Below, piece by piece: positions 6,239 to 20,213 of a stretch of DNA of 64,000 nt; positions within the stretch are counted from its first letter, which is position 1; every line of letters begins with the position of its first letter. The position numbers were made by a program, and so were the translations under genes. The notes under the pieces were generated by a model. It was not told the origin of the DNA and ran no database searches. It saw only the letters and a program-made list of their open reading frames with translations. Source of the DNA: PVC group bacterium (GTDB taxonomy: Bacteria; Verrucomicrobiota; Kiritimatiellia; CAIKKV01; CAITUY01); contig CAMDCX010000003.1 of the NCBI GenBank assembly GCA_945890715.1, forward strand, positions 7,906 to 71,905. The letters are read 5' to 3'.

Positions 6239-6325
6239 AAAAAGTGCCGCCACTTTAACGAGCGGAAGAGGCAAGATCAAATTCAAATCACCCCTCTCCA
6301 CGCTTGGCATGAAAACCGGCGGGCG

Positions 6326-7366
6326 TTACCGGGCCAGTTGTCCGCAGGCGGCCTGGATGTCGGCACCCAGCGAATGGCGACGCGTTGCCTTGAACCCGGC
6401 TTTCTTTAGTTCCGCCAGGAATTCCCCTACCCGCTGCTCCTGAGACCCGCGCAGAACCTGTCCCGCAACAACCGGCGCAGGGCCGGGTGCCGGATTATAA
6501 GGGATCAGGTTTACATGCACTTGCAATCCGGTCAGCCATTCCTTTAGCCCCGCACAATCAGCATCCGTATCCGTCAATCCCTCCAGCATCAGAATCTCGA
6601 TCATCACCGGTTGACCGTGAACTGTATTCCGCTCCAGGATTGCCTCACGAAGTTCCGGGAGCGGCCATTGGCGGCAAAACGGCATCAGTTCATCGCGGAT
6701 ACCCTGCCGCACGCTGTGCAGACTCACGGCAAGCCCGACCGAGGGAAAGCACGAGGACAGACGGCGTATGCCCTCCGGGATCCCAAGCGTGGAAACCAGA
6801 AGATGCCGGCCCGAAAGATGAAATCCGCCCGGGCTACTCAACTGCTCCAGCGCCGGGAACACGTTCTCCATGTTGTGAAAGGGCTCACCCATTCCCATAA
6901 AAACCACATTCCTGAGACGGCGTCCCTCCGCCTGAAGCATTTCCCCCGTCTGGACAATCTGATCCAGAATTTCCGCCGGGGTGAGGTTACGAACATCCTT
7001 CAGTCTTCCGGTGGCGCAGAACAGGCATCCCGCAACGCACCCGGTCTGTGATGACACGCATACTGAGGATCGACCGGTCTTGATGCGAAGCAGAACGCTT
7101 TCGATACGGCGGTCATCCCGGGTTTTGAACAACACCTTGCTGGCTCCATCCAAAACCGAATGAAGGGTTTCAATCCGCTCCAGTTCATGGAATCTCACCG
7201 CCGTGCTCACTTCGGATCGCATCCCTTCCGGCACCTCGCCGAGGGCGGCATCCTGACCTGAAAAAGAACGGAGAAAAACGGCTCGCACGCGCCGGATCAC
7301 CTGCGGGTCAAGCCGGAGCCGACGCCTCAGCGCTTCTAGTCCAACTTGGTCGACAAAGGAAATCAC
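6326..7366 (-). CDS. rlmN: RlmN-family radical SAM RNA methyltransferase (possibly a paralog)
   Basis: CVSSQTGCVAGCLFCATG (CxxxCxxC), VFMGMGEP, C-terminal IQAACGQL. Confidence 0.8.
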   Translation of the reverse strand: MISFVDQVGLEALRRRLRLDPQVIRRVRAVFLRSFSGQDAALGEVPEGMRSEVSTAVRFHELERIETLHSVLDGASKVLFKTRDDRRIESVLLRIKTGRSSVCVSSQTGCVAGCLFCATGRLKDVRNLTPAEILDQIVQTGEMLQAEGRRLRNVVFMGMGEPFHNMENVFPALEQLSSPGGFHLSGRHLLVSTLGIPEGIRRLSSCFPSVGLAVSLHSVRQGIRDELMPFCRQWPLPELREAILERNTVHGQPVMIEILMLEGLTDTDADCAGLKEWLTGLQVHVNLIPYNPAPGPAPVVAGQVLRGSQEQRVGEFLAELKKAGFKATRRHSLGADIQAACGQLAR

Positions 7367-9276
7367 TGTTCAAAATAGGTGTAACCGCGAATACCGGCTT
7401 TGTAGTCCTTCAGAAACGCATTCTTTTCCTTGGCGGTGATGAAGCCGTGCTTATAGGCCTTATCGGCACGCGACTTGATCGTCGCCACCATGCTTTCCGG
7501 GTCGTATTCCATGTACTTCAGAATTTCATCCACCCGATCCCCCGTGATCTGCTTGGCCGACTCAATACGGCCCTTGTCGTCAATCCTCACATGCAACACG
7601 TTTGTGTTCCCCAGAAGATTATGCATATCCCCGATGGTTTCCTGATAAGCACCCGTCAGAAAAATGCCCATATAGTATTCTCGTCCATCCCATTCATGGA
7701 GCGGCAGGACATGCTTGATATCGTGCAAATCAATGAACTTGTCGATCTTTCCATCCGAATCGCAGGTGATGTCCGCCAAAACCCCTTTGCGGGTCGGGCG
7801 CTGGCTGAGCCGGTGGATCGGCATAATCGGGAACAACTGATCAACGGCCCAGAAATCCGGAATGGACTGAAATACACTGAAGTTCCCGTAATACACGTCG
7901 GCAATTGCGGAATCCAGACCCTCGAGTTCGTCGGGAATATACTTGCGTCCCCGCGTCATTTCGGACATCTGGCAGACGATGTGCCAGAAAATCGTTTCCG
8001 CCAGAGCCCGTTCGCGGAGCGAGATCGTTCCGTGAAGGAACAGGGTGCGCAGTTCGTCGCGATAGAACACGGCATCATGATAAGCCTCCTGCATGTTCCG
8101 GGGGGAAAGGGAATGGCAAACTTCCATCAGGTTTTGAAGCATCTCATGGGCATTCACATCCAGTTTCTCTGGAATGTTGAGGGGCTCGAAACGACGCACA
8201 TCCAGAATGTTGAAAATCAAAACCGAGTGATGCGCCACCGTGGCGCGCCCGGACTCGGTAATGAGTGTGGGATGCGGCACCCCACACTCATCAAGGGTAT
8301 TCATGATCGTCTCGACCACCGTGGACGCATATTCGGCAGTAGAGTAATTGGTGCTACAGGCGAAATTGGTGTGGGAACCATCATAGTCCACGGCCAACCC
8401 TCCGCCCATATTCAGAATCCCCATTCCCGCCCCCTCACGAACGAGCTCAACATAGAAACGGCAGGCTTCCCGCAGCGCGGTACGCACCCTGCGGATGTCC
8501 GACACCTGGCTACCCAGATGGTAGTGCAGCATCTGCAGACAGTCCAACCTGTCGCGCTGACGCAACTGATCGACCATCTCTATGATCTGACTGGCATCGA
8601 GACCAAACTTGCTACGATCCCCACCCGACGAATCCCAATGCCCGCCGGCCCGACTCGACAACTTAGCGCGCACTCCCAGTACAGGCCGGATATCCAGACG
8701 CTCCGCTCGAGACAAAACAAGCTCCAGTTCACTGGGCATTTCTATAACCAGCACGGTGCGGGTCCCCATCTTCAAAGCCTGGAGAGCCATGTCGATGAAT
8801 TCCTCGTCCTTGTAGCCGTTGCAGATCACAAAGGCTTCCGGATCCTTCATGAGGGCGAGCGCGGCAATGAGCTCGGCCTTGCTGCCCGCCTCAATGCCGT
8901 GGTGATACTCACGCCCGTATTCCGTGATATCGCCCACCACGGCGTCCTGCTGATTCACCTTGATGGGGAAAACACCACGATACTGCCCCTGGTAGGCGGC
9001 ATCAAATATGGCCCACCGGAAACTCTCGTTGATCTCCTTGATGCGTGAGGCCAGGATGTTGGAAAAACGAATCAGAACGGGCATATTCAGCCCGCGCCCA
9101 TGACACTCGTCAATCAAGTGCATGAGACTGATTTCCGTGGGACTTTTCGGACCGTTCGGGCGAACCATGACTTCACCGCCGGGCGAGATGTCAAAATACC
9201 CCTGTCCCCAGTTCCGGATCCCGTACAATTCGGCGGAATTTTCCGCCGTCCACCGTGTCAATGCCTCATGCCTCAT
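7363..9276 (-). CDS. speA: biosynthetic arginine decarboxylase
   Basis: FPIKVNQ (PLP lysine), EAGSKAEL, HYHLGSQ, ESGRA, DITCDSDG, GAYQE. Confidence 0.95.
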   Translation of the reverse strand: MRHEALTRWTAENSAELYGIRNWGQGYFDISPGGEVMVRPNGPKSPTEISLMHLIDECHGRGLNMPVLIRFSNILASRIKEINESFRWAIFDAAYQGQYRGVFPIKVNQQDAVVGDITEYGREYHHGIEAGSKAELIAALALMKDPEAFVICNGYKDEEFIDMALQALKMGTRTVLVIEMPSELELVLSRAERLDIRPVLGVRAKLSSRAGGHWDSSGGDRSKFGLDASQIIEMVDQLRQRDRLDCLQMLHYHLGSQVSDIRRVRTALREACRFYVELVREGAGMGILNMGGGLAVDYDGSHTNFACSTNYSTAEYASTVVETIMNTLDECGVPHPTLITESGRATVAHHSVLIFNILDVRRFEPLNIPEKLDVNAHEMLQNLMEVCHSLSPRNMQEAYHDAVFYRDELRTLFLHGTISLRERALAETIFWHIVCQMSEMTRGRKYIPDELEGLDSAIADVYYGNFSVFQSIPDFWAVDQLFPIMPIHRLSQRPTRKGVLADITCDSDGKIDKFIDLHDIKHVLPLHEWDGREYYMGIFLTGAYQETIGDMHNLLGNTNVLHVRIDDKGRIESAKQITGDRVDEILKYMEYDPESMVATIKSRADKAYKHGFITAKEKNAFLKDYKAGIRGYTYFEQ

Positions 9277-9356
9277 TCCGTCGCCCTCCTACCAAGACAT
9301 CAAAGCCGGAACATAACATGAGACGGGGTGATGTACAGTGAAAATGAACCCCTCTT

Positions 9357-10688
9357 TTACCGAATCTTCACCGGCTCAAACCGAGGCGCAAGGAGATGAT
9401 TAACGGCGAAAGCGACCAGATAGGCAAACGCACAAATGCTGAAGAGAATGGCATAACCAGCTGTCTCGCTGCCTGCCAACCTATAGTGATCCAGCATCTT
9501 GCCTGTCATAATGGGAAAAATCATACCGCCCAACGATCCCGCCATACCCCCCAGCCCGATAATCGAGGCAATCGCCCGCTTGGGGAACATATCGGACACC
9601 GAGGTGAATAGATTAGCAGACCAGGCTTGATGCGCAGCCCCCGCCAACCCGATCAACAGTACCGCAGGCCAGTCACCGACTTTTGTAACGAAAAAAATCG
9701 GCAGCACGCAAAGCGCAAACAGGAACATTCCAGTCTTACGGGCACGGGTCACACTCCATCCGGATTTTGCCAAATGACCGGTGATCCACCCGCCAAAAAT
9801 ACTGAGCACGGTAATGATCCCGTAAATGACAACGAGTAATGGCCAACTATGCTTGATGTCCAGATTTCGGGTCGTCTTGAAGTAGTCCGGGAGCCAAATG
9901 AGAAAAAACCACCAAACAGGGTCAGTCAGGAATTTCGCGACAATGAAAGACCAGACCTGACGGTAGCCCAAAAGAGCTTTCCAGGGAATCTTTTCCACCC
10001 GATCACTTTCCTCACGGTCACTAAGGATATGCTCAAGCTCCTTTGCATCCACCTCCTTATGCTTTTCGGGAGAATCATACATTTTGATCCAGAACCAGAG
10101 CCAAACAAAGCCAATTATACCGGCCACGATGAAGGGCATCCCCCACCCGAACTTGATCGCCAGAAGCGGAACTAAAGCGGGTGCCAACAAGGCCCCAACA
10201 TTAGTTCCTGAATTAAACAAACTGGTCGCAAAAGCACGTTCCCGCTTGGGGAACCACTGCGCCGTACTTTTGACGGCGGCGGGGAAGTTCCCGGCCTCGG
10301 CAAGCCCGAGCAGAACCCGACACAGTCCAAACGCCGCCACGGCCAATGCGGCAGCCCCGAATACCCGCCCTCCGATCTGAATACTGGCATGGCCGGGCAT
10401 AATTGCCACGATGGCATGAGCCATCGCCGCCAGGCTCCAGCCTACCATCGAGACGGCATACCCGACCTTGACCCCGAACCGATCCACAAACCAGCCAAAG
10501 AACAACAGACCCAGTCCATAAGCGGCCTGGAACAGGGAATTAACAAGCCCGAAATCGGCCTTGCTCCATCCAAATTGCACATCCAGAAACTCTTTGATCA
10601 GGGAAAGAATTTGCCGGTCAATGTAATTGACCGTCGTGGCGAAAAAAAGCAGCGTGCAAACAACCCACCGGTAATTGCCCTTGAACAT
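9357..10688 (-). CDS. exuT: MFS hexuronate transporter (ExuT-like, ACS family)
   Basis: NYIDRQ, EAGNFPAA, WFPKRERA, KFLTDPVWWF, AHQAWSAN; lies in the uronate operon. Confidence 0.85.
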   Translation of the reverse strand: MFKGNYRWVVCTLLFFATTVNYIDRQILSLIKEFLDVQFGWSKADFGLVNSLFQAAYGLGLLFFGWFVDRFGVKVGYAVSMVGWSLAAMAHAIVAIMPGHASIQIGGRVFGAAALAVAAFGLCRVLLGLAEAGNFPAAVKSTAQWFPKRERAFATSLFNSGTNVGALLAPALVPLLAIKFGWGMPFIVAGIIGFVWLWFWIKMYDSPEKHKEVDAKELEHILSDREESDRVEKIPWKALLGYRQVWSFIVAKFLTDPVWWFFLIWLPDYFKTTRNLDIKHSWPLLVVIYGIITVLSIFGGWITGHLAKSGWSVTRARKTGMFLFALCVLPIFFVTKVGDWPAVLLIGLAGAAHQAWSANLFTSVSDMFPKRAIASIIGLGGMAGSLGGMIFPIMTGKMLDHYRLAGSETAGYAILFSICAFAYLVAFAVNHLLAPRFEPVKIR

Positions 10689-10702
10689 AGAGTTCTCTCC
10701 TT

Positions 10703-11530
10703 CTAAACGCCTGAATAGGCTAGAAATCCGCCATCCACAGGAATCACAACACCCGTGACAAAGGAGGCTTCGTCGGAAACCAGGTAGGTCAGCGCACCGC
10801 ACAAATCTTTCGGATCCCCGAACCGGTGCATCGGCGTCTTGTTAATAACCTTCTGTCCGCGAGCCGTGAGGGTCGTGCCATCCGGCTCAAGCATTAGAAA
10901 CCGGTTCTGCTGGGTGATGAAAAAGCCCGGGGAAATGGCGTTGACCCGGATGTTGGCGGGAGCCAGGTGAACGGCTAACCAACGGGTGAAATTGTCGATT
11001 GCCGCCTTCGCTGCGGAATACGCCGCCACCTTCGTCAACGGTTGCGTTGCGGACATCGAGGATATATTGATGACGCTACCCCCCGTTTTCAGCATGGACT
11101 GACAAAAAACCTGAGCCGGCAACAGGCTGCCGATGAAATTGAGTTTGTTGACAAATTCGAACCCCGCCAAATCAAGACCGAAAAAGGAGTCTTCCAGCTT
11201 CGTTCCCTCTACAAACTGTTCGGCGGGACAGGTGCCCTTGGGATGATTTCCTCCGGCACCGTTAACCAGGATATCAATCCGACCCCACTTTTCCAGCACC
11301 GCCTCCCGAGCCATCTCGAGGGAGGCGCGCTCCAACACATTAACCCCAAAGGCCAGAGTTTCTCCGAGTCCTTTCGACGCAAGGGTCTTCTGAAAGGTTT
11401 TGGCATGATCCTCATTCAGATCAGCCAAGACGACCTTGGCTCCCTCCCTCAGCAGGGACTCCGTCATCACCGAACACAACACACCCGCCGCTCCCGTCAC
11501 TACCGCTACTTTTCCGTCAAGCCGCCCCAT
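10703..11530 (-). CDS. uxuB: SDR D-mannonate oxidoreductase (fructuronate reductase, UxuB/YjmF type)
   Basis: TGAAGVL, NGAGGNHPKGT, catalytic YSAAK, C-terminal DGGFLAYSGV; adjacent to uxaC. Confidence 0.82.
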   Translation of the reverse strand: MGRLDGKVAVVTGAAGVLCSVMTESLLREGAKVVLADLNEDHAKTFQKTLASKGLGETLAFGVNVLERASLEMAREAVLEKWGRIDILVNGAGGNHPKGTCPAEQFVEGTKLEDSFFGLDLAGFEFVNKLNFIGSLLPAQVFCQSMLKTGGSVINISSMSATQPLTKVAAYSAAKAAIDNFTRWLAVHLAPANIRVNAISPGFFITQQNRFLMLEPDGTTLTARGQKVINKTPMHRFGDPKDLCGALTYLVSDEASFVTGVVIPVDGGFLAYSGV

Positions 11531-11559
11531 AATGCCATCCTTCTGCGGGTTTACCGCTG

Positions 11560-12972
11560 CTAATTAAAAAAACCGAAATACCGGCGGGCATTGTGGTAAC
11601 AGATGTCCGCCACCATTTTTCCCGTCAAATCCATATCATTCGGAAGACGCCCGCGCGCCATATCGTGGCCAAGAATGTTGCACAGCAGGCGCCGGAAATA
11701 CTCATGCCGCCCATAGGACAGGAATGACCGGCTGTCCGTCAGCATGCCGACAAATTGGCTCAGCAATCCAAGTTGGGAAAGCGCCTCGATCTGGCGGGTC
11801 ATACCGTCAAGTTGATCCAGAAACCACCACCCGCTCCCGAACTGAATTTTTCCCGGCGTCACGCCATCCTGAAAACAACCAGCCAAGGTGGCAATGAGTT
11901 CATTATCACAGGGATTGATATTATAAAGAATCGTCTTTGGCAGTTTCCCAATCTGATCCAGACGGTCAAAATGACGAATCATCCCTTCACCCGTCGGCCA
12001 ATCACCGATGGAATCAAATCCGGTATCAGGCCCCAGTATCGCCGCCATGCGACTGTTGTTATTGCGCAAAACACCATAATGGATCTGCATCGTCCAGCCC
12101 CGGTCGGCATCCATCACCGCCAGCTCATGAAGCATGAACGCCTGAAACGCCAAGGCCTCCTCGGCTGAAACCGGCTTTCCGGAACGAGCTTTCTCAAAAA
12201 CAGTCCCGGCAACCGCCTGGGTGCATCCTTCGGCGGGGATAAAAGCAACCCCACGGTCAGACAGTCGACACCCACAGGCATGAAAGAAATCATGACGCTT
12301 TTGAAGCGCGGCGAGAAATCCATCCAGATTTCCAATATCCGCATTGACGGTTCCGGCAAGTCGGTCGGTCCAGGCATTGAAGGCCGCCGGATTGGCAACA
12401 GTCCAGCATTTATCCGGACGCCATGTGGGCCGCACCTGAACAGAAAATCGATCCGCAGCGATAGCCTGGTGGTGCTCCAAAGAATCCACGGGATCATCGG
12501 TGGTGCAGACCACCTCAACTTTGGCCTTTTTCATCAGGCTGCGGGCAGAAAACTCCGGCGCGGCAATGACCTTAAGCGATTCAGTCCAGATGGATTCGGC
12601 GGTAGCGGGCGACAACAGGCGGTCGGCAATCCCAAAAACATTTTTTAGCTCCATGTGCGACCAGTGATACAGGGGATTCCGGAGAGCCTGCGGCATGAGT
12701 TCGGCATACTTGTCGAACTTTTCCCGATCGGAAGCGTTGCCGGTGCAATACCGCTCCGCAATCCCGGCCGTGCGCATCTGCCGCCATTTGTAGTGGTCGC
12801 CATAGAGCCAGACCTGGGTAATGTTGTCCCATCGCTTGTTACTCGCGATTTCAGCCGGAGGCAAATGGCAGTGGTAATCAATAATCGGAAGATCCGCCGC
12901 ATACCCGTGGTACAATTCACGAGCCTGCTCCGTCTCCAGTAGGAAATTTTCACCAATGAATGTGTTTGCCAT
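11560..12972 (-). CDS. uxaC: glucuronate/uronate isomerase
   Basis: IIDYHCHL, GDHYKWR, CTTDDP, GSGWWF, GMLTDSRSFLSY, RHEYFRR. Confidence 0.97.
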   Translation of the reverse strand: MANTFIGENFLLETEQARELYHGYAADLPIIDYHCHLPPAEIASNKRWDNITQVWLYGDHYKWRQMRTAGIAERYCTGNASDREKFDKYAELMPQALRNPLYHWSHMELKNVFGIADRLLSPATAESIWTESLKVIAAPEFSARSLMKKAKVEVVCTTDDPVDSLEHHQAIAADRFSVQVRPTWRPDKCWTVANPAAFNAWTDRLAGTVNADIGNLDGFLAALQKRHDFFHACGCRLSDRGVAFIPAEGCTQAVAGTVFEKARSGKPVSAEEALAFQAFMLHELAVMDADRGWTMQIHYGVLRNNNSRMAAILGPDTGFDSIGDWPTGEGMIRHFDRLDQIGKLPKTILYNINPCDNELIATLAGCFQDGVTPGKIQFGSGWWFLDQLDGMTRQIEALSQLGLLSQFVGMLTDSRSFLSYGRHEYFRRLLCNILGHDMARGRLPNDMDLTGKMVADICYHNARRYFGFFN

Positions 12973-12978
12973 AAGATC

Positions 12979-14274
12979 CTACTCCCGATCCGAGAAATTC
13001 CCGCGGAATGACCAAAGGCCCAGCGCAGGGTTGCTAATGAAAAAGACCCGCTCCCCTTCAACCTCATTCATGCCGTCCGAAAGTGTTTGCGGGTTGTATT
13101 GGGCCATCAGGGTCTTGAGATCGCCATACCGATATCCCACCGATTCAATTTCGGTCCGAGAGAGGTACCCGGGGCAATAGGTAATCCCAAACCGGTCTTC
13201 TGAAGAGCCGTGAATAAGATGAGCCGCCGCAGACAGATTGTTTCGCAACTCCAAATTTTCCGCTACACAGCGAAGTGTATAAGGAGTGCCCTTGTAGCCA
13301 TAGTGACGAACCAGACGGTCGATTTCGCGATCTTCACCGAACTCTTTCAACCCAGGGGCAAGAACAACCAATTCCCCGGCATCGGCAATGGCCATACGAG
13401 TCCTGTAAATAGCCTTATTACCCAGCCATGTGGAACGAAATTCCTCAGGATCCAGCCAGACCACCACTTTTGTCAAAGGCTCATCAAGCAATGTGATGTT
13501 GACCTTCCGACAAAGTTGGCAGGCCTCCTGAAAAAGCGAGTCTCCCTTTCCAGCATAAAACCCGCGCATTTTCATCCGACCAGCCGCATGGTCACGCTCC
13601 ATCACCGTGAGAATATACTGGATCGGAAGCCCACTCAGGAAGGTTGAGACACCATAATTGAACAGACGACGCACCGGCGTATCGGCATGACCAAGCGCCT
13701 TCTCCATATTGCAAACGGCACCTAGAAAATGCGATTTGTTGATGGTTTCGGCTCCCCCTACCCCGACCAACACATTCTTCGTGTAGTTGGCCATCCCGAC
13801 CACTTCATGAGGAACCACCTGCCCAATGGAAAGAATAAGGTCATACCCTGAAAACAGGCGTTTATTGACCTCAATATTGACATCGTAGTCCACTCGGCCA
13901 TCGGACCATTCCCGAAGTTTGTCTCCGGGAATAACACCTCGTGAAACCACGTCTTTCCGCCAATCATGAGGCAAGAAGCACTCCAGAGGAATGCTATCAC
14001 CAAACATCAACCGGAGCTCCGCCTCCCCCATTGGGGCATGCGTGCCCAGCGCCGGCATAATATCCGTTTTTGCACCCCAGCCTGAAAGCAACCGGTAGGC
14101 AATTGCGGTAATCGGACCGGCCATGGAGTTGAGCCGAGTGTGATCCGGGGGAAGGAGAAGCACCCGGCGAAGCGTTCTCCCGCCGAATGTCTCCAGCGCC
14201 TGAAGCACCAGTTGCTCCAATTCAGGAGACTGGATATCCAATTTCACACCGGCCTGTTTGATCACAGCGGTCAT
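12979..14274 (-). CDS. LarA/DUF2088 nickel-pincer 2-hydroxyacid epimerase (mannonate/gluconate 2-epimerase-like)
   Basis: PPDHTR, ALGTH, VVPHE...ANYTK, KSH and LGNK correspond to the LarA catalytic and NPN-binding positions. Confidence 0.8.
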   Translation of the reverse strand: MTAVIKQAGVKLDIQSPELEQLVLQALETFGGRTLRRVLLLPPDHTRLNSMAGPITAIAYRLLSGWGAKTDIMPALGTHAPMGEAELRLMFGDSIPLECFLPHDWRKDVVSRGVIPGDKLREWSDGRVDYDVNIEVNKRLFSGYDLILSIGQVVPHEVVGMANYTKNVLVGVGGAETINKSHFLGAVCNMEKALGHADTPVRRLFNYGVSTFLSGLPIQYILTVMERDHAAGRMKMRGFYAGKGDSLFQEACQLCRKVNITLLDEPLTKVVVWLDPEEFRSTWLGNKAIYRTRMAIADAGELVVLAPGLKEFGEDREIDRLVRHYGYKGTPYTLRCVAENLELRNNLSAAAHLIHGSSEDRFGITYCPGYLSRTEIESVGYRYGDLKTLMAQYNPQTLSDGMNEVEGERVFFISNPALGLWSFRGNFSDRE

Positions 14275-14279
14275 CCTAT

Positions 14280-15740
14280 TTACACAACGTAGGTCGACGA
14301 TGTGGTTGAGCCTCCCAGCTTGCACCAGTCCGTGTGGAAGAACTGACCGCGCGGCTTATCAATCCGTTCGTAGGTATGGGCGCCAAAATAATCTCGCTGT
14401 GCCTGAAGCAGGTTGGCGGGAAGTGTTTCGGCGCGATACCCGTCATAATAGGCCAACGCGGACATGAAAGCGGGAATCGGGATTCCGTGCTTCACAGCGC
14501 GGGCCACTGCCCGGCGCCAGGCCTTCTGGCTCTGACGAATCGCCTTCTTAAAATATTTATCCAGAAGCAAATTGGCCAGTTTCGGATTCCGATCAAAAGC
14601 CGCCTTGATATCGCCCAGGAAACGCGCCCGAATGATGCACCCGCCACGCCACATCAGAGCAATGGATCCATAATCGAGCGTCCAGTTCTGCTCTGCGGCC
14701 GCCGCACGCATCAATTGAAAACCCTGAGCATAGGAACAGATCTTTGAGGCATAGAGAGCTTGACGAACATCCTCGATAAAGGCTTCCTTATCTCCTTTAA
14801 ATTTGGCTTTCGGCCCTGACAACACCTTGGCGGCCGAAACACGTTCATCCTTCATCGCGGACATGCAACGGGCAAACACAGCCTCCGAAACCGTCGGTGC
14901 CGCGACTCCGTAATCCAACGCCGCAATGCTGGTCCACTTACCCGTCCCCTTCTGGCCGGCTGTGTCCAGAATGATATCCACCACATGCTTCCCGGTCTCT
15001 GGATCCTTCTCCGCGAGGATATCACGCGTAATCTGAATAAGGTAGGAGTCCAAGTCGCCTTCATTCCACTGCGTAAAGACCTTGTGCAACTCCTCATTCG
15101 ACAGCCCGAGCACCCCTTTGAGCAGGGAGTACGCCTCACAGATCATCTGCATGTCGCCGTACTCGATTCCATTATGAACCATTTTGACAAAGTGGCCGGC
15201 TCCATCAGACCCCACCCAGTCGCAGCAGGGAACATCGCCCTCCACCTTGGCAGAAACAGCCTGAAAAATCGGCTTCACATGGGGCCACGCAGCGGGTGAT
15301 CCACCGGGCATGATGGATGGTCCCTTAAGCGCGCCCTCTTCGCCTCCGGAAACACCGGTTCCTATAAACAACAATCCCTTCGACTCGACATAGTTTGTCC
15401 GGCGGATCGTATCCGGATAATGGCTGTTACCGCCATCAATGATGATGTCACCAGCCTCCAGGTGCGGCAGGAGTTGCTCGATACACTCATCCACCGCCTT
15501 GCCAGCCTTGACCAGCATCATAACCTTGCGAGGACGCTTCAGCGCCGCGCAAAGCTCGGTAACTGTTTTGCATCCCACAATCTTTTTTCCCTTCCCACGC
15601 CCTTGAACAAAGGCTTCAACCTTATCCACCGTGCGGTTGTAGACAGCAACGGTAAACCCATGGCTCTCCATGTTGAGGACGAGATTTTCCCCCATGACGG
15701 CGAGTCCGATCATGGCCATATCCGCAGTTTGATTACTCAT
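14280..15740 (-). CDS. gnd: 6-phosphogluconate dehydrogenase, decarboxylating (NADP)
   Basis: [50 protein letters not shown]. Confidence 0.97.
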
Positions 15741-15774
15741 GCTTTTATTCCTTTGTCTTGTTCGTTTATTGAAA

Positions 15775-16662
15775 TTAGTTTTTCCAGTGAGGCTGGGACG
15801 GTAACGCCGCTTCAAATTCGTCGACTAGTCGCTTCTGGTATGCTCCCGCGAAAGACCCGTTGAAGAATCGCTTCAACCCCTCTCCCGCAAGCTCAGCCCA
15901 GGACGACTCTTCCCGCCCGGGAAGGATCGGAAAGAAAAGGGCCTGGTTCCCATCGGCGGCCTTACGGTCTCCGGGCGCATCACCGACCATCAACACCTTA
16001 CCTTCGGCGTAGTGCCCCTTGGTCGCGTGGGTAAGATGCTCAGTCTTGGTGCCATGCTCCTGACCGGCAATCACACTGACGGTTCCACGAATTCCCGCTT
16101 CCTCCCATTCCCGCTCCAAGGCTTCCAGTGGGGTCTGGGACACGACAATCATGTCAGCTTTTCCCGTGCCGGCTGATAACACCTCGCGCACACCAGGAAA
16201 GGGCGGAATTCCAAACACCATTTCTTCAATACGGCGATTAACCTCCAAGCTCCATTCCAGCAACCGTTTCAGCTCGGGAGTAGGATCATCGGCGACTTTC
16301 TTCTTGAGCGCGGGATTCCCAAGCTTAGTCTCCACTTTGAGCCAGGCGGAAAGCTCCGAGGTATCCGCCAGTTTCACTCCCCGCTGACTGAACTGGCTAC
16401 GCAATCGCATCAACGCAAAGGTTTTTTCAACAGCCAGAAAACGGTTACAACCCCGATCCTTGCTGTAGAGATTTACAAATTCCCAGGTCTCCCGGGCATA
16501 TTTGCTCGCAGATTGAAGGCCGAAATGCTTGATGAAAGCCGGGCAGAAACATTCCTTCTGCTTAATCTCCATCGAATCGAACACGCACCCATCACTGTCA
16601 AATCCGATAAAGAACCCATGCTTTCTGGGCAACTCCACTAATTGCTTTACATACTGATCCAT
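15775..16662 (-). CDS. HAD-superfamily hydrolase/phosphatase
   Basis: Motif [10 protein letters not shown], motif II VSQT, motif III K (GTK), motif [10 protein letters not shown]. Confidence 0.85.
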
Positions 16663-16666
16663 TACA

Positions 16667-17962
16667 TCACTTTCCCTTCCGATTTCCCTCTGGAACATAG
16701 GCCGCCAGCTTTCTGGCGGCAAACACCGGCTTGAACTGCGCGAATCGTTGTCGCCCGCCAATAGTCGGAACCGACGCCCAGTCCTCGCCGATCAGGGGCT
16801 GGGCATAGCGAATAAACTCATCCGTCACATCGGTTTTGCTCGGCGAAATCCAGTTTTTCGGAAACGTACGTTCGGAATTGGCAACCAGCTCCAACGGAAC
16901 CTTGTCATAGCGAACCTGATAAATACGCCCTGGATCCCTCAAAATCGTGGACATAAAGCCGCCCTCACCCCCCACCGCCAACTCAACCGCCTTCTGTCCG
17001 CACCGGTACGCTTCATCCAGATCAACCACCGAGGCATAGACCGCCGTGGAACGCTGATCCGTCCCAAAGACCTGGCCGCGCGCTGCGCCCGCCGCCTTAA
17101 TCCCGTGGTCATTCAGATAGTTGACGAGCATCTGCTGAGCCGTTGTTTTGCTCGCGCCAAAGGTGGCATGCCCGAATTTGTCTTTCAAGGCACCCAGATC
17201 CCCCACATCGCAGCCCTCGCTGAGCACCACCACCGCACGGCCGCGCGCGGCTACCATCTCATTCGTCTTTTCTGCCATCTCACCCAAGGACAATCCGGCT
17301 TCAGCCAAAAAAATCAGCAGAGGCATCTCGCGCTTGGGATCCGCCAGACGGGCGGCTGCGGGGATATAGCCGATCTTGCGACCCATTGCCTGAAGCACCA
17401 GCACGGGATCCGCCGGATAGGAACCCCGGTTCTCCTCTTCGGCATTTTGAACGATCATGGTCCAGTAACGTGCCACAGAGCCGTATCCCGGAGTATGATC
17501 AATCAATTTAAAATCGCTGTCGCCAACATCGTTGTCAATCGTTTTGGGAACGCCGATCCCGACAACATCCAACCCACGTTCACAGGCCAGTTTCGCGATC
17601 TTGTTGGCGGTGTCCATGGAGTCATTCCCGCCATTGTATAAAAAGTATCCAATATTATGAGCCCGCAAAACATCAATAACACGTTCGAAGTCCGCCTTCT
17701 GGCTGGATTTGATCTTATAACGGCAGGTTCCAATCGCACCCGCGGCAGGAGTCCACCGAAGGAGAGCGACCTCCTCTTCACTCTGAATGGATAAATCAAG
17801 CAATTCCTCGGTGAGAACCCCCTCAATTCCATGCCATCCCGCATAAATACGATCAACCTGATCCGGATAACTTCGGGCCGCTTCGATGACGCCTCGTAAT
17901 GAGCTATTGATCACCGGCGAAGGCCCACCGGACTGAGCGATAAGAAGGTTTTTTCTGGTCAT
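16667..17962 (-). CDS. PPi-dependent phosphofructokinase (PfkA family) homolog
   Basis: QSGGPSPVIN; GGNDS (Asp of PPi type); PKTIDND (Lys of PPi type); MGR. Start at MTRKNLL with a GGGGAG RBS. Confidence 0.85.
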   Translation of the reverse strand: MTRKNLLIAQSGGPSPVINSSLRGVIEAARSYPDQVDRIYAGWHGIEGVLTEELLDLSIQSEEEVALLRWTPAAGAIGTCRYKIKSSQKADFERVIDVLRAHNIGYFLYNGGNDSMDTANKIAKLACERGLDVVGIGVPKTIDNDVGDSDFKLIDHTPGYGSVARYWTMIVQNAEEENRGSYPADPVLVLQAMGRKIGYIPAAARLADPKREMPLLIFLAEAGLSLGEMAEKTNEMVAARGRAVVVLSEGCDVGDLGALKDKFGHATFGASKTTAQQMLVNYLNDHGIKAAGAARGQVFGTDQRSTAVYASVVDLDEAYRCGQKAVELAVGGEGGFMSTILRDPGRIYQVRYDKVPLELVANSERTFPKNWISPSKTDVTDEFIRYAQPLIGEDWASVPTIGGRQRFAQFKPVFAARKLAAYVPEGNRKGK

Positions 17963-18037
17963 CACTGAACTCCCCTTAATTCGGTTGATATAGGCTTCAA
18001 AATAGGCTTTCGCGCCGCCTTCTACAATCTGAAATAA

Positions 18038-18077
18038 TCGCAAATTGGTTGACATTTGCGAACTATATTTCCATGTT
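18038..18077 (+). promoter_or_regulatory. promoter of the XylR-like gene with an overlapping palindromic operator
   Basis: TTGACA(18049)-N17-CATGTT; inverted repeat TCGCAAAT-N8-ATTTGCGA at 18038-18061. Confidence 0.55.
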
Positions 18078-18082
18078 AAGTC

Positions 18083-19207
18083 ATGGCCGGAAAAATGAAA
18101 AATGTTCTGGTGGCGCTGGAATTCTACCGGGGGCCTCTGTTTGAGGGAATTGCGGAATATGCCCGATCGCACCACTGGCACCTGTCTTTGGAAATGCTAC
18201 ATAATCCTGGAAACATCCCTTGGGGGTGGGATGGCGATGGAATCCTCACCATGCTCATCCGTGACGAAACCGCCCTGTTGAAATTTCTACAGAAAACTAA
18301 AAAGCCCACTGTCAATCTGGAGGGCCGACGACTGACCACCTCCTATCCCCGGGTTCTCAGCGACACGAAAAAGGCAGCAGAAATGGCCTTTCATTATTTC
18401 AGGGGAAAAGGATTTGAGCACTTCGCCTTCTATGGCATTGAACATTCCGTGCGCGGTCGCGACTTTGCCCTTGTTACACAGGCCAACGGCTATCCTTGCA
18501 CGTTCCTGCTCGAGGGCGCGGTTTCATGGAGGACGCAGCTGGCCGTCACCCGTCGTTGGCTCAAGGATCAACCCAAGCCCCTCGCTGTTCTTTGCTGGGC
18601 TGATTATGCCGGGGCACGCTTTGTCGATATGGCGCACAGTCTGGGATGGCGTATTCCCGATGATGTCGCCGTTCTGGGAATGGATAATGAGAACCGCATT
18701 TGTGATTGTGCAGCAGTTCGCCTATCCAGTATTCAGACCGACATTCAACGCGTTGGCATTCTGGGAGCCGGGCTTCTTGATCGCATTATGGCGGGCGAAG
18801 CCATTGAGCCCAAAAGCCAGCTCATCCCTCCCCGCGAAATCGTGGAACGCCACAGTACCGATACCTTTGCGGCAGACTCCCCGTTGGTAACTCAGGCCGT
18901 CCGGTTCATGAAAGAGCATCATCCGTCAGGAATTAATGTGGCATCCGTGGTCGCCGCCTGCGCCGTGTCACGGCGCGGTCTCGAAAAAGCGTTTCTCAAC
19001 AGTTTAGGAAAAACCCCGTACCAGACGCTACTCCAGATCCGCATGTATAAAGCGCGCCTTCTGTTAAGGGAGGGACAAGAAAAAATTGCAACAGTCGCCC
19101 GTCTGGTTGGAATTCCGGACCCCAAGCACTTTTCCTCGCTCTTTCGCCATGAATACGGAGACGCGCCCCGCAATTACCGTCAGCGCTGGGAGCAAGCGAA
19201 TCTCTGA
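18083..19207 (+). CDS. XylR-like transcriptional regulator (LacI-type sensor domain plus AraC HTH)
   Basis: WDGDGIL, IPDDVAVLGMDN, LSSI, VERHST; C-terminal AraC helices; divergent from the uronate operon. Confidence 0.88.
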   Translation: MAGKMKNVLVALEFYRGPLFEGIAEYARSHHWHLSLEMLHNPGNIPWGWDGDGILTMLIRDETALLKFLQKTKKPTVNLEGRRLTTSYPRVLSDTKKAAEMAFHYFRGKGFEHFAFYGIEHSVRGRDFALVTQANGYPCTFLLEGAVSWRTQLAVTRRWLKDQPKPLAVLCWADYAGARFVDMAHSLGWRIPDDVAVLGMDNENRICDCAAVRLSSIQTDIQRVGILGAGLLDRIMAGEAIEPKSQLIPPREIVERHSTDTFAADSPLVTQAVRFMKEHHPSGINVASVVAACAVSRRGLEKAFLNSLGKTPYQTLLQIRMYKARLLLREGQEKIATVARLVGIPDPKHFSSLFRHEYGDAPRNYRQRWEQANL

Positions 19208-19250
19208 GTTCAGCCTTCTCCATTGGCGTCCACTTTTATATCATCAGGCC

Positions 19251-20213
19251 ATGTCGCATTCACAAATCAACGGAACGGCGTTTCTTTATGACCCCATTTT
19301 ACAAAAACACAAAACGGGCTGCACGCATCCCGAAAAACGGCAGCGCCTCACCGCCATCATGAACGGACTAAAGCAAGCTGGGCTTTGGGAATTGCTCCAG
19401 CATCCCGCCATCCGGCCAGCAACGGCGACAGACCTCACTACGATTCACGACCCACAGTATGTTGATCACATCCGGCAGGCGTGTGAAGCCGGAGAACTCT
19501 TCGCGCCCGATGATGTCACCATCGGATCCCCTGGCACCTACGACGCCGCCCTGATGTCCGCTGGAGCAGTTTTAACCGCGATCGACACCGTAATGGCCGG
19601 TCAAGCCTCCAACGCCTTCTGTGCCGTACGTCCTCCAGGCCATCACGCAGAACGGAACCGAGCCATGGGATTCTGCTTTTTTAATAATGTTGCCATCGGC
19701 GCAAAATACCTTCAGCAGCATCATGGCATCCGCCGCGTCGCCATTATTGATTGGGATGTGCATCACGGTAACGGCACGCAACAGGCCTTTTACGACGACC
19801 CTTCTGTATTTTATTTCAGCATTCATCAGCACCCTCTTTACCCGAACAGCGGGTGGTCTCATGAAACCGGAACCGGCAGGGGAAAAGGCTTCACCTTGAA
19901 CTGCCCAGTCCCTGCAGGCTCCACCAACACAGACTACAATCGGGTATTCCAAGACTATCTCAGACCCGCGCTGGTGCGGTTCAGGCCGGAATTCATACTA
20001 ATCTCGGCGGGTTTTGATGCGCACCATGCCGATCCTCTCGCAGGCATAGCCCTCAACGAAAAGGGCTTTAAGGAACTGACCCACACCGTAATGACGTTAG
20101 CAACGGAATACTCCGAAAACCGCCTCATTTCCGTGCTGGAGGGGGGCTACGATCTCACGGCACTCGCGGCGTGTGTCACGTCTCACATCGAAGCGCTTCT
20201 GGACGCTTCATGA
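19251..20213 (+). CDS. histone deacetylase / acetylpolyamine amidohydrolase family protein
   Basis: HPE, RPPGHHA, MGFCFFNN, DWDVHHGNGTQ, SAGFDAH, LEGGY. Confidence 0.93.
   Translation: MSHSQINGTAFLYDPILQKHKTGCTHPEKRQRLTAIMNGLKQAGLWELLQHPAIRPATATDLTTIHDPQYVDHIRQACEAGELFAPDDVTIGSPGTYDAALMSAGAVLTAIDTVMAGQASNAFCAVRPPGHHAERNRAMGFCFFNNVAIGAKYLQQHHGIRRVAIIDWDVHHGNGTQQAFYDDPSVFYFSIHQHPLYPNSGWSHETGTGRGKGFTLNCPVPAGSTNTDYNRVFQDYLRPALVRFRPEFILISAGFDAHHADPLAGIALNEKGFKELTHTVMTLATEYSENRLISVLEGGYDLTALAACVTSHIEALLDAS

What the first reader, a model, noticed from the sequence alone, without database searches (positions are those of the whole stretch)
16667..17962. PFK homolog with a remodelled 6-phosphate pocket: candidate PPi-dependent fructuronate kinase
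Seen: PPi-type donor signatures (GGNDS, PKTIDND) and the sugar-ring MGR motif are kept. Segments that bind the F6P 6-phosphate in PfkA are altered: E. coli HQRISVVEVMGR reads ADPVLVLQAMGR (basic residue lost, ~17380-17415), and GHIQR reads GTDQR (~17051-17065). The alignment was done by eye. Established chemistry: D-fructuronate is fructose with a C6 carboxylate, so it mimics F6P, and its C1 becomes C6 of mannonate after reduction. Inference: PPi phosphorylation at C1 gives fructuronate-1-P; the SDR then yields 6-P-mannonate, LarA yields 6-P-gluconate, and Gnd follows. This fills the missing kinase step exactly. Alternative: an F6P/S7P kinase serving a transaldolase-free sedoheptulose-bisphosphate route.
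Basis: inference. Interest (0 to 1): 0.85.

Follow-up and report, generated by a model that had tools for sequence, protein, structure and literature searches.

The report
PFK-family kinase in a sugar-acid operon
A divergent member of the phosphofructokinase family heads an operon for breaking down uronic sugar acids and probably supplies that pathway's missing kinase step, which would be a new job for this textbook enzyme family.

Summary
It is one of four PFK-family genes in this genome. It belongs to a sharply separate clade: 63-79% identity within the clade, at most 43% to other members of its PPi-PFK subfamily.

Both positions are variable across the whole subfamily, and the other two phosphate-binding arginines are kept. 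The clade does have its own remodelling: Q-A-MGR-K-I-G-F/Y, a 5-residue insert after TIDND, and D302.

Gene context is the strong evidence. In 60 of 80 loci from several phyla the clade sits with Gnd, a mannonate-oxidoreductase-type SDR, a LarA-family epimerase and/or a novel HAD-like protein. For Gnd, LarA and the HAD-like protein the count is 0 of 20 around non-clade relatives. UxaC is adjacent in only 7 of 80.

None of 40 clade-bearing genomes has a recognisable gluconokinase. A same-genus genome without this PFK has an APH-family kinase in its LarA-SDR-Gnd cluster instead.

Best reading (about 0.55): a PPi-dependent sugar-acid kinase that feeds 6-phosphogluconate to Gnd. The substrate (gluconate, mannonate or fructuronate) is unresolved. 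An ordinary F6P/S7P PPi-PFK remains possible (about 0.25).

The parts
16667..17962 (-). PFK-family kinase (431 aa), first gene of the operon. PPi-type signatures; member of a distinct 'QAMGR' clade.
17618..17632 (-). GGNDS motif (residues 111-115). The Asp at the fourth position is the PPi-type signature.
   Evidence: Meaning of the motif from PMC12203962 (passages).
17528..17548 (-). PKTIDND motif (residues 139-145). Holds the PPi-type Lys and the catalytic-base Asp (Asp127 equivalent).
17507..17521 (-). Clade-specific 5-residue insert (D148-K152) directly after TIDND-V-G.
   Evidence: gap in 89 of 89 non-clade rows, filled in all 82 clade rows. Coordinates computed by me from the residue numbers.
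17366..17392 (-). QAMGRKIGY (residues 191-199). Clade signature around the sugar-binding MGR motif; other subfamily members read E-x-MGR-[NDH]-A-G-W.
17051..17083 (-). ARGQVFGTDQR (residues 294-304). Arg243 and Arg252 equivalents are kept, D302 is clade-specific, T301 is not.
15775..16662 (-). HAD-like protein of an uncharacterised subfamily (DxDG, SxTP, K and GDxxGD motifs invariant). It starts 4 nt after the PFK stop codon.
14280..15740 (-). 6-phosphogluconate dehydrogenase, decarboxylating (Gnd). Start codon uncertain: the ORF opens at 15815, and the Met at 15740 fits the domain start.
12979..14274 (-). LarA-family protein, NCBIfam 'NPN_18_hexonate' putative nickel-dependent hexonate epimerase (596 bits, cut-off 500). 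Start uncertain (ORF opens at 14325).
11560..12972 (-). Glucuronate isomerase UxaC.
   Evidence: PF02614, 640.6 bits
10703..11530 (-). SDR of the D-mannonate oxidoreductase subfamily (fructuronate reductase type).
   Evidence: NF006132, 373.6 bits, cut-off 281
9357..10688 (-). MFS transporter of the anion:cation symporter type (nearest model: D-galactonate transporter subfamily, below its cut-off). Start uncertain (ORF opens at 10802).
18083..19207 (+). Divergently transcribed regulator: periplasmic-binding-protein-like sensor domain plus AraC-type HTH.
   Evidence: Conserved next to the PFK in L011, L012 and L020.
18038..18061 (.). 24-bp palindrome in the 120-bp gap between the PFK and the regulator. 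Possible operator; untested.

Best explanation
The gene encodes a catalytically intact, probably PPi-dependent, PFK-family kinase recruited as the kinase of a sugar-acid route to 6-phosphogluconate.

Proposed route in this window:
1. The MFS transporter imports a hexuronate.
2. UxaC makes fructuronate.
3. The SDR reduces it to mannonate.
4. The LarA-family enzyme epimerises C2.
5. The PFK-like enzyme adds the phosphate.
6. Gnd converts the resulting 6-phosphogluconate to ribulose 5-phosphate.

The kinase takes the place held by GntK in Thermotoga and by the unidentified mannonate kinase in L. suebicus.

Shown: family membership, intact catalytic and donor motifs, a separate clade, clade-specific gene context, and no recognisable gluconokinase.

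Inferred: that it phosphorylates a sugar acid at all, that PPi is the donor, and where it acts. My order of preference for the substrate is mannonate or gluconate at C6, then fructuronate at C1, then another keto- or aldonic acid. The carboxylate would occupy the site held by the retained Arg243 and Arg252 equivalents.
For: 1. Operon. Seven same-strand genes with gaps of about 4-35 nt or short overlaps, the PFK first, and no other kinase among them.

2. Accessory paralog. The genome also has an ATP-PFK-like gene (389 bits), a better-scoring PRK14072-type gene (477 bits) and a PRK06555 PPi-PFK (696 bits). The clade occurs in 7 of 200 sampled genomes of the phylum at 63-79% identity, the next best being 43%. 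It is missing from two same-genus genomes.

3. Separate clade. FastTree gives SH-like support of 97. In IQ-TREE, the 35 other subfamily rows split off with SH-aLRT 100.

4. Context. The 80 best genome loci (66-96% identity, several phyla) carry, within 10 kb: HAD-like 48, Gnd 45, a LarA homolog 44, SDR 42, UxaE-like 8, UxaC 7. At least one core partner lies on the same strand in 60 of 80 loci, and at least 3 partner kinds in 41 of 80. Control: 20 loci around non-clade relatives in the same phylum gave HAD-like 0, Gnd 0, LarA 0, SDR 1.

5. Missing kinase.
- P-loop gluconokinase over cut-off: 0 of 40 clade-bearing genomes, and none in this genome.
- FGGY gluconokinase over cut-off: 0 of 40.
- This genome's two FGGY kinases: one is xylulokinase-like and sits in a xylose cluster, the other is rhamnulokinase-like.
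- Mannonate dehydratase UxuA, the classical exit for mannonate: not found in this genome and present in only 8 of 40.

6. Natural experiment. Same-genus genome G183 lacks this PFK but has an APH-family kinase, an NAD epimerase, a LarA homolog, an SDR and Gnd in a row.

7. Precedent. The mannonate-to-gluconate-to-6PG route and the mannonate-to-6-P-mannonate-to-6PG route are both published (passages of PMC7583248, and PMC6978723).

8. Donor motifs. GGxD Asp in 82 of 82 clade rows and PKT Lys in 82 of 82 (meaning of the motifs).
Against: - The protein scores above the curated cut-off of a PPi-PFK (F6P) subfamily model. It keeps every residue known to bind F6P that the rest of the subfamily keeps, including both remaining 6-phosphate arginines. 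Nothing in the sequence excludes F6P or S7P.
- 19 of 80 loci show the PFK with no module gene nearby. In 7 of the 8 such genomes I examined, the HAD-like gene is also isolated.
- UxaC was not found in 15 of 40 clade-bearing genomes, so uronate is not the universal input.
- 34 of 40 genomes have sub-threshold FGGY kinases, best 336 bits against a cut-off of 648. These could include Thermotoga-type gluconokinases.
- 25 of 40 genomes showed no transaldolase, which leaves room for an S7P-kinase role.
- The clade is unusually conserved across phyla (66-80% identity), more so than its neighbours, as central enzymes tend to be.
- This genome is 89.5% complete. Its apparent lack of Zwf and LarC is probably an assembly gap, because close relatives G001 and G002 have both.
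- The role of the always-accompanying HAD-like protein is unexplained.
- There are no biochemical data.
Confidence: 0.55

Rival explanations
1. Ordinary reversible PPi-PFK acting on F6P and/or sedoheptulose 7-phosphate. It would be co-located with Gnd because the operon's product, ribulose 5-phosphate, must pass through the non-oxidative pentose phosphate pathway and glycolysis. The kinase for the sugar acid would then lie elsewhere or be unrecognised.
For: - NF010675 hit above cut-off.
- All conserved F6P, phosphoryl-transfer and PPi residues are kept.
- The nearest solved structures are PPi-PFKs (3k2q, 3hno; E about 1e-74).
- PPi-PFKs of this general type phosphorylate S7P (PMC12203962 passages; abstract of PMC7029132 in the search listing).
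- Thermogutta PPi-PFKs of this general type were proposed as S7P kinases (PMC5673643 passages).
- 25 of 40 clade-bearing genomes showed no transaldolase.
- PdxB, which uses an erythrose-4-P derivative, and Gnd often sit beside it.
- 19 of 80 loci lack the module.
Against: - This genome has a transaldolase and three other PFK homologs, including a more canonical member of the same subfamily.
- The clade is patchy: 7 of 200 genomes, and absent from two same-genus genomes.
- Its neighbours are specific to the clade: Gnd, LarA and HAD-like are 0 of 20 around non-clade relatives.
- This reading leaves the sugar-acid route without a kinase in this genome, and 0 of 40 clade-bearing genomes have a recognisable gluconokinase.
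- A same-genus cluster carries a different kinase in the equivalent place.
- The clade-specific changes flank the sugar-binding motifs.
Confidence: 0.25
2. A PPi-dependent D-fructuronate 1-kinase acts first. The SDR then reduces fructuronate 1-phosphate to 6-phosphomannonate, and the LarA homolog acts as a 6-phosphomannonate 2-epimerase. This is a sub-case of the best explanation.
For: - Established chemistry: beta-fructuronate furanose is F6P with the CH2-O-phosphate replaced by a carboxylate, and the acceptor would be the same C1 hydroxymethyl that PFK phosphorylates.
- The catalytic Asp, MGR and Glu222 equivalents, which bind the furanose, are all kept.
- The PFK is the first gene of the operon.
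- 6-phosphomannonate 2-epimerase activity exists in nature and its gene is unknown (PMC6978723 passages).
- LarA group 18 has never been assayed (PMC7583248 passages).
Against: - No residue evidence. The cited substitutions are subfamily-wide.
- The clade does not follow uxaC: adjacent in 7 of 80 loci, and not found in 15 of 40 genomes.
- The SDR scores as an ordinary D-mannonate oxidoreductase.
- LarA groups 19 and 20, said to share signatures with group 18, act on unphosphorylated mannonate.
- I tested whether the PdxB-like neighbour pointed to phospho-aldonate intermediates. It does not: it is each genome's single PdxB.
- No paper in the searched library mentions a fructuronate kinase or fructuronate 1-phosphate.
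Confidence: 0.17
3. A kinase-phosphatase pair with the HAD-like protein, acting on an already phosphorylated compound. One form would make a bisphosphate and remove the other phosphate, moving the phosphate within the molecule. Another would serve metabolite proofreading around Gnd. Neither would be the main catabolic kinase.
For: - The HAD-like gene accompanies the clade in 40 of 40 genomes at E<=1e-20 and in 7 of 7 clade genomes of the phylum sample, against 40 of 193 others.
- It is adjacent or nearby in 48 of 80 loci.
- Its model (pLDDT 95) resembles HAD-IA phosphoglycolate-phosphatase and beta-phosphoglucomutase folds.
- 4-phosphoerythronate inhibits 6-phosphogluconate dehydrogenase and is removed by a HAD phosphatase in yeast (abstract of PMC6449344).
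Against: - No substrate can be named.
- The HAD-like family also occurs in 40 of 193 genomes without the clade.
- The link with the SDR, LarA, UxaC and UxaE is left unexplained.
- Foldseek matches are weak (TM about 0.4-0.53, 12-18% identity), so no specificity can be read from them.
Confidence: 0.08

Closest known systems
PPi-dependent 6-phosphofructokinases of the PRK14072/NF010675 type (about 420 aa). Solved examples: Nitrosospira multiformis 3hno and Marinobacter aquaeolei 3k2q. The Methylococcus capsulatus enzyme is cited in PMC5673643 as acting on F6P and S7P.
   Same: Same fold family and length. HMM score is above the cut-off. The GGxD and PKTIDND donor motifs, the catalytic Asp, MGR, the Glu222 equivalent and the Arg243 and Arg252 equivalents are all kept.
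   Different: About 40% identity only, and a separate clade. It differs by E-to-Q before MGR, K-I-G-F/Y after it (others read [NDH]-A-G-W), a 5-residue insert after TIDND, a 4-residue insert before the Arg243 equivalent, and D302. Gene context is sugar-acid/Gnd, which non-clade members do not show.
Thermotoga maritima hexuronate route via GntE (LarA group 20), GntK and Gnd (Rodionova 2012, as cited in PMC7583248 and PMC6978723).
   Same: UxaC, an SDR-type mannonate oxidoreductase, a LarA-family epimerase and Gnd are clustered. UxaE-like genes occur in 8 of 80 related loci.
   Different: The epimerase belongs to the unassayed LarA group 18, or in Hydrogenedentota-type loci to a further group scoring only 182 bits on that model. 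No GntK is present. A PFK-family kinase and a HAD-like protein are there instead.
Lactobacillus suebicus galacturonate pathway: mannonate kinase plus 6-phosphomannonate 2-epimerase (PMC6978723).
   Same: Mannonate is converted to 6-phosphogluconate and then used by Gnd. Phosphorylation can precede epimerisation. The genes for both steps are unidentified.
   Different: In that work the kinase activity was ATP-dependent and attributed to gluconokinase homologs. No PFK homolog is mentioned ('phosphofructokinase' occurs 0 times in the text).
S7P-phosphorylating PPi-PFKs of transaldolase-free organisms (Entamoeba, cellulolytic clostridia).
   Same: A PPi-PFK linked to the pentose phosphate pathway, showing a second acceptor besides F6P within the family.
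   Different: Those enzymes act on sugar phosphates. This genome has a transaldolase, and the clade's partners are sugar-acid enzymes.

Membership tests
Phosphofructokinase (PFK-A) superfamily, Pfam PF00365 | Profile match above the curated cut-off over the whole domain | tested here: met
   122.3 bits against 30.9, profile positions 2-276 of 277.
Phosphofructokinase (PFK-A) superfamily, Pfam PF00365 | Catalytic base Asp in TIDND, the MGR sugar-binding motif, and the Glu222 equivalent | tested here: met
   D143, M193-G-R195 and E249 are each present in 82 of 82 clade rows. Asp127 as the general base comes from PMC12203962. The MGR and Glu222 roles are recalled.
PPi-dependent PFK (EC 2.7.1.90), NCBIfam NF010675 subfamily | Subfamily HMM above its cut-off | tested here: met
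   368.1 bits against 273. This is lower than the genome's other member of the subfamily, at 477.1 bits.
PPi-dependent PFK (EC 2.7.1.90), NCBIfam NF010675 subfamily | Donor signatures: Asp in place of the last Gly of GGDG, and Lys in P-K-TIDxD | tested here: met
   GGNDS and PKTIDND; D114 and K140 are in 82 of 82 clade rows. Meaning of the motifs, which also notes that the Lys alone is not decisive.
PPi-dependent PFK (EC 2.7.1.90), NCBIfam NF010675 subfamily | Groups on a tree with the characterised or solved members | tested here: not met
   It falls in a separate clade. The 35 other subfamily rows split off with SH-aLRT 100, and FastTree gives 97. Rows carrying the STK..EVMGRHAGW signature seen in 3k2q and 3hno lie on the other side.
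PPi-dependent PFK (EC 2.7.1.90), NCBIfam NF010675 subfamily | Phosphorylates fructose 6-phosphate with PPi | not testable with these tools
   Needs an enzyme assay.
Gluconokinase (P-loop GntK TIGR01313, or FGGY GntK TIGR01314) | Homology to either gluconokinase family | tested here: not met
   The protein is a PFK-fold enzyme. It could work like a gluconokinase or mannonate kinase but is not a member of either family.
Thermotoga-type hexuronate to 6-phosphogluconate pathway | UxaC, SDR mannonate oxidoreductase, LarA-family C2 epimerase and Gnd clustered together | tested here: met
Thermotoga-type hexuronate to 6-phosphogluconate pathway | A GntK-type gluconokinase | tested here: not met
   None in this genome (89.5% complete). 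Over cut-off in 0 of 40 related genomes.
Thermotoga-type hexuronate to 6-phosphogluconate pathway | Nickel-pincer cofactor synthesis (LarC) available for the epimerase | tested here: inconclusive
   LarC was not found in this genome but is present in 38 of 40 clade-bearing genomes, including close relatives G001 and G002. The absence is probably an assembly gap.

The most novel reading that the evidence does not exclude
This would be the first PFK-A-family enzyme whose acceptor is an unphosphorylated sugar acid. It would be a PPi-dependent D-fructuronate 1-kinase (or mannonate 6-kinase) opening a fully phosphorylated branch. In that branch the SDR and the nickel-pincer LarA group-18 enzyme act on phospho-intermediates, and the LarA enzyme is the long-sought 6-phosphomannonate 2-epimerase. 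The conserved HAD-like protein would proofread phospho-aldonates that would otherwise inhibit Gnd.
Probability: 0.17. Interest if true: 0.85.

Novelty: new variant of a known kind. Interest (0 to 1): 0.62.

Why it matters
The 2025 review of the PFK superfamily lists only fructose 6-phosphate and sedoheptulose 7-phosphate as acceptors; 'gluconate' does not occur in its text. A sugar-acid kinase in this fold would widen the family's chemistry.

It would also supply the missing kinase of a uronate/hexonate-to-pentose route that is spread across Lentisphaerae, Kiritimatiellota, Hydrogenedentota, Planctomycetota and other phyla. The genome scan found 580 stretches encoding relatives of the query.

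It would give a testable functional context for the unassayed LarA group 18 and for an uncharacterised HAD subfamily.

Automatic annotation will call these genes PPi-PFK, because they score above the model's cut-off. Metabolic reconstructions of these mostly uncultured polysaccharide degraders may therefore miscount glycolytic PFKs and miss the pathway. A PPi-driven entry step would also bear on energy budgets in such organisms.

Tried and rejected
1. PdxB-like neighbour as evidence for phosphorylated hexonate intermediates: rejected. It is present in 35 of 80 loci. However, each genome has a single PdxB-type gene (34 of 41 genomes at E<=1e-40, one gene each) and most have PdxJ (35 of 41). It is therefore most simply the real PdxB.

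2. Absence of Zwf as evidence that Gnd depends on this operon: rejected. Zwf was not found in this genome but is present in 31 of 40 clade-bearing genomes, including close relatives G001 and G002.

3. A transaldolase-free SBP route in this genome: rejected, because a transaldolase is present. It stays open for other genomes.

4. Pseudoenzyme or regulator: rejected. All catalytic motifs are invariant in the clade.

5. Promoter and terminator scan of 9000-18400: nothing above the shuffled expectation (3 promoter-like sites against a mean of 6.3; 12 terminator-like sites against 10.8).

6. Expression: no RNA holder is listed for the operon.

7. Sequence search of the HAD-like protein: no PDB match at E<=1, no NCBIfam match, and Pfam HAD_2 only below its cut-off (19.1 against 23.8).

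8. The crude ORF clustering of neighbourhoods lost genes to antisense ORFs. It was replaced by tblastn with named queries.

9. No structure was predicted for the PFK, because the tools return no coordinates and clade-specific residues could not have been mapped onto a ligand site. No docking was possible.

10. Limits of the context counts.
- SDR and LarA hits in loci were defined by tblastn (E<=1e-8, at least 45% query coverage). Only those of the window, L087 and L092 were checked against family models.
- The 44 'LarA' loci combine 12 that resemble the window's group 18 (49-89% identity) and 32 of a different group (26-31%).

11. Supplements were not seen. Table S1 of PMC7583248 (gene context of each LarA group) and the supplementary tables of PMC5673643 (Thermogutta expression) may already show a PFK neighbour or its regulation.

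Full report
OBSERVATION. The ORF at window 16667-17962 (-) encodes a 431-aa protein, P0001. It matches Pfam PFK at 122.3 bits (cut-off 30.9). It matches the NCBIfam PPi-PFK subfamily NF010675 at 368.1 bits (cut-off 273). Its nearest solved relatives are the structural-genomics PPi-PFKs 3k2q and 3hno (E about 1e-74). HMMER places P186 opposite the Arg162-type arginine of an ATP-PFK. MAFFT places GTDQR opposite GHVQR of the genome's ATP-PFK-like paralog.

LOCUS. The PFK is the first of seven same-strand genes. In order of transcription they are:
- the PFK;
- a HAD-like protein, starting 4 nt after the PFK stop codon;
- Gnd;
- a LarA-family protein that scores 596 bits (cut-off 500) on NCBIfam 'NPN_18_hexonate, putative hexonate epimerase';
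- UxaC;
- an SDR of the D-mannonate oxidoreductase subfamily (373.6 bits, cut-off 281);
- an anion-symporter-type MFS transporter.
A sugar-sensor/AraC-type regulator is transcribed divergently, and a 24-bp palindrome lies in the 120-bp gap.

A PARALOG IN ITS OWN CLADE. The genome (2.1 Mb, 89.5% complete) has four PFK-family genes. The other three are an ATP-PFK-like gene (389 bits), a better-scoring NF010675 member (477 bits) and a PRK06555 PPi-PFK (696 bits). An exhaustive search of 1.84 billion representative proteins gave 4310 hits. Identities were 48-61% for the few full-length nearest ones, then dropped to about 40%.

On a FastTree of 107 full-length rows, the query sits in a 14-row set (support 97) beside 89 other subfamily rows. 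On an IQ-TREE of 64 rows, the 35 other subfamily rows split off with SH-aLRT 100. The clade itself (23 rows) has support 74, and a small sister group 100.

In 200 genomes of the phylum that are at least 90% complete, the clade occurs in 7, at 63-79% identity. The next best match anywhere is 43%. Two same-genus genomes lack it.

RESIDUES. I compared 82 clade sequences with 89 other subfamily members.
- The Arg162-equivalent column is basic in only 18 of 89 non-clade rows, and is Pro in 14.
- The His249-equivalent column is L, T (20 of 89), V, Y and others.
The Arg243 and Arg252 equivalents (R295, R304), the Glu222 equivalent, MGR, TIDND, the PPi-type Asp of GGxD and the Lys of PKT are kept in at least 80 of 82 clade rows.

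What is specific to the clade:
- Q191 for Glu (E in 83 of 89 others);
- A192, K196-I197, F/Y199 for Trp (W in 86 of 89) and P201;
- R205, D208 and R211;
- a 5-residue insert straight after TIDND-V-G, and I154 for Thr;
- a 4-residue insert before R295;
- D302.
The enzyme therefore looks catalytically competent and PPi-type (motif meanings from the 2025 review). It has real but uninterpreted remodelling next to the sugar-binding motifs. The sequence alone does not say which acceptor it takes.

CONTEXT ACROSS GENOMES. A pattern scan of one genome per GTDB species found 580 stretches encoding relatives of the query. The best 80 loci (66-96% identity) come from records labelled Lentisphaerae/Victivallales, Kiritimatiellota, Hydrogenedentota, Planctomycetota, Nitrospir-, Chloroflexota, Ignavibacteria, Firmicutes and Bacteroid-.

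tblastn with the operon's proteins found the following within 10 kb:
- HAD-like in 48 loci;
- Gnd in 45;
- a LarA homolog in 44 (12 like the window's, 32 of a more distant group);
- the SDR in 42;
- a PdxB-like gene in 35;
- a UxaE-like gene in 8;
- UxaC in 7.
At least one core partner lies on the same strand in 60 of 80 loci. At least three partner kinds are present in 41, and none in 19, four of which are contigs under 4 kb.

As a control I fetched 20 loci of 19.2 kb around non-clade subfamily members (34-41% identity) from the same phylum. They gave HAD-like 0, Gnd 0, LarA 0, SDR 1 and PdxB-like 2.

PHYLETIC PATTERNS IN 40 CLADE-BEARING GENOMES.
- P-loop gluconokinase over cut-off: 0 of 40, best 35 bits.
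- FGGY gluconokinase over cut-off: 0 of 40. Sub-threshold FGGY kinases, best 336 bits against 648, exist in 34 of 40.
- UxaC: 25 of 40, two of them weak.
- UxuA: 8 of 40.
- LarC: 38 of 40.
- Zwf: 31 of 40.
- Transaldolase: 15 of 40.
- The HAD-like protein: 40 of 40 at E<=1e-20. That family also occurs in 40 of 193 phylum genomes without the clade.

In this genome I found no gluconokinase, UxuA, Zwf or LarC. The last two absences are probably assembly gaps, because close relatives G001 and G002 have both genes. Its FGGY kinases are a xylulokinase-like gene in a xylose cluster and a rhamnulokinase-like gene. Transaldolase is present.

The PdxB-like neighbour is each genome's single PdxB, in genomes that also have PdxJ. 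It gives no evidence about phospho-hexonates.

A NATURAL EXPERIMENT. Same-genus genome G183 lacks the clade PFK. It carries, in a row, an APH-family phosphotransferase, an NAD-dependent epimerase, a LarA homolog, an SDR and Gnd. A different kinase family thus occupies the module where the PFK and the HAD-like protein are missing.

LITERATURE.
- LarA groups 19 and 20 (GntE) epimerise D-mannonate and D-gluconate. Group 18 is only hypothesised to act on a hexonate (passages of PMC7583248). A further gluconate/mannonate epimerase, LarAH15, was reported in 2024 (passages of PMC11770544).
- In L. suebicus, cell extracts phosphorylate mannonate and then epimerise 6-phosphomannonate to 6-phosphogluconate. 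Both genes are unknown (passages of PMC6978723).
- Thermogutta has one ATP-dependent and three PPi-dependent PFKs and no gluconokinase. Two of its PPi-PFKs were proposed as S7P kinases (passages of PMC5673643).
- The 2025 PFK review names only F6P and S7P as acceptors (passages).
- Full-text searches: no paper holds 'phosphofructokinase', 'mannonate' and 'lactate racemase' together. 'Mannonate kinase' occurs only in the L. suebicus paper. No paper has 'fructuronate kinase' or 'fructuronate 1-phosphate'.
- Supplements were closed, so the gene-context table of the LarA paper was not seen.

MECHANISM. The best-supported reading is that this PFK paralog is the kinase of a sugar-acid-to-6-phosphogluconate funnel, with PPi as donor. 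In the window the funnel runs from uronate through UxaC, the SDR, the LarA epimerase and the kinase to Gnd.
- Shown: family membership, intact motifs, a separate clade, clade-specific context, and the lack of a recognisable gluconokinase.
- Inferred: the acceptor, the donor and the order of steps.
The acid group would sit where the retained Arg243 and Arg252 equivalents bind the 6-phosphate of F6P. I cannot separate gluconate or mannonate at C6 from fructuronate at C1. The first two have published precedents. The last is the closest steric mimic of F6P but has no precedent.

The main rival is an ordinary F6P/S7P PPi-PFK placed beside Gnd for pentose-phosphate traffic. For it: the conserved phosphate-binding residues, the 19 loci without the module, and the 25 of 40 genomes without transaldolase. 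Against it: the patchy distribution, the clade-specific neighbours, the other PFKs and the transaldolase in this genome, and the APH-kinase swap in a sibling genome.

THE HAD-LIKE COMPANION. It belongs to a highly conserved, uncharacterised subfamily. The DxDG, SxTP, K and GDxxGD motifs and many basic cap residues are invariant in 23 aligned sequences. The AlphaFold model has a mean pLDDT of 95. Foldseek places it among HAD-IA phosphoglycolate-phosphatase and beta-phosphoglucomutase folds at TM about 0.4-0.53. Its role is open. One lead is proofreading of phospho-aldonates that inhibit Gnd, by analogy with 4-phosphoerythronate (abstract of PMC6449344). This was not tested.

VERDICT. This is a probable new substrate specificity within a textbook family, testable with a simple enzyme panel.

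Noticed in passing
window 15775-16662 (-); paralog at G000:C53:5279-6181 (L117): The HAD-like protein belongs to an uncharacterised, strongly conserved subfamily: no NCBIfam match, Pfam HAD_2 below its cut-off, no PDB sequence match. It often sits next to PdxB and Gnd in other phyla. A phosphatase that removes Gnd-inhibiting phospho-aldonates such as 4-phosphoerythronate is a lead. A second copy (46% identity) lies elsewhere in this genome.
   Followed up: partly
L092 (G183:C9) 4863-10603: A same-genus genome has a cluster of APH-family phosphotransferase, NAD-dependent epimerase/dehydratase, LarA homolog, SDR and Gnd, with no PFK or HAD-like gene. This is another possible uncharacterised sugar-acid kinase.
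   Followed up: partly
L001 (G000:C4:1234-2412, -): The genome's ATP-PFK-like paralog (NF002872, 389 bits) reads MGH where PFKs have the MGR motif, and GGGGT in the donor loop. It is an unusual 'canonical' PFK.
   Followed up: no
G000:C1:97304-99766 (L002, L003): Two further PPi-type PFK genes, a PRK14072 type and a PRK06555 type, lie in tandem on the same strand. The genome therefore has three PPi-type PFKs and one ATP-type-like PFK. The Thermogutta terrifontis paper reports the same complement.
   Followed up: no
proteins P0022, P0044, P0083, P0090, P0108: A small sister group of the clade shares its insert, Q191, R205, D208 and R211, but reads GGNGT (Gly at the PPi/ATP-deciding position) and FGR instead of MGR. 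It may be a donor-switched relative. Its gene context was not examined.
   Followed up: no
window 18038-18061: A perfect 8+8 palindrome (TCGCAAAT, 8 bases, ATTTGCGA) lies between the PFK and the divergent AraC-type regulator. It is a possible operator.
   Followed up: no
L087 6834-7976 and 34 other loci: The genomes' single PdxB gene is embedded in the SDR / HAD-like / LarA / PFK / Gnd cluster in Hydrogenedentota-type loci and in some Victivallales and Bacteroid-labelled loci. This is an unexplained but recurrent linkage of vitamin B6 synthesis with the module.
   Followed up: partly
G000:C38:5117-10883 (L116): A second uronate-related cluster holds DUF2264, Eda (KDPG aldolase), KduI, a KduD-like SDR and a GH88 unsaturated glucuronyl hydrolase fused to DUF4861. 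The organism also handles unsaturated uronates through the KDG route.
   Followed up: no
own genome G000 against G001 and G002: LarC and Zwf were not found in the window's genome (89.5% complete) but are present in its closest relatives. A transaldolase was found in this genome but not in those two. Presence/absence calls in these draft genomes are unreliable in both directions.
   Followed up: partly
window 19086-20213 (+) and 18083-19207 (+): A histone-deacetylase-family ORF overlaps the 3' end of the regulator ORF by about 120 nt if its TTG start is used. The pair (regulator, then deacetylase) is conserved next to the PFK in close relatives L011 and L012; in L013 the deacetylase is present but the regulator was not detected.
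   Followed up: no
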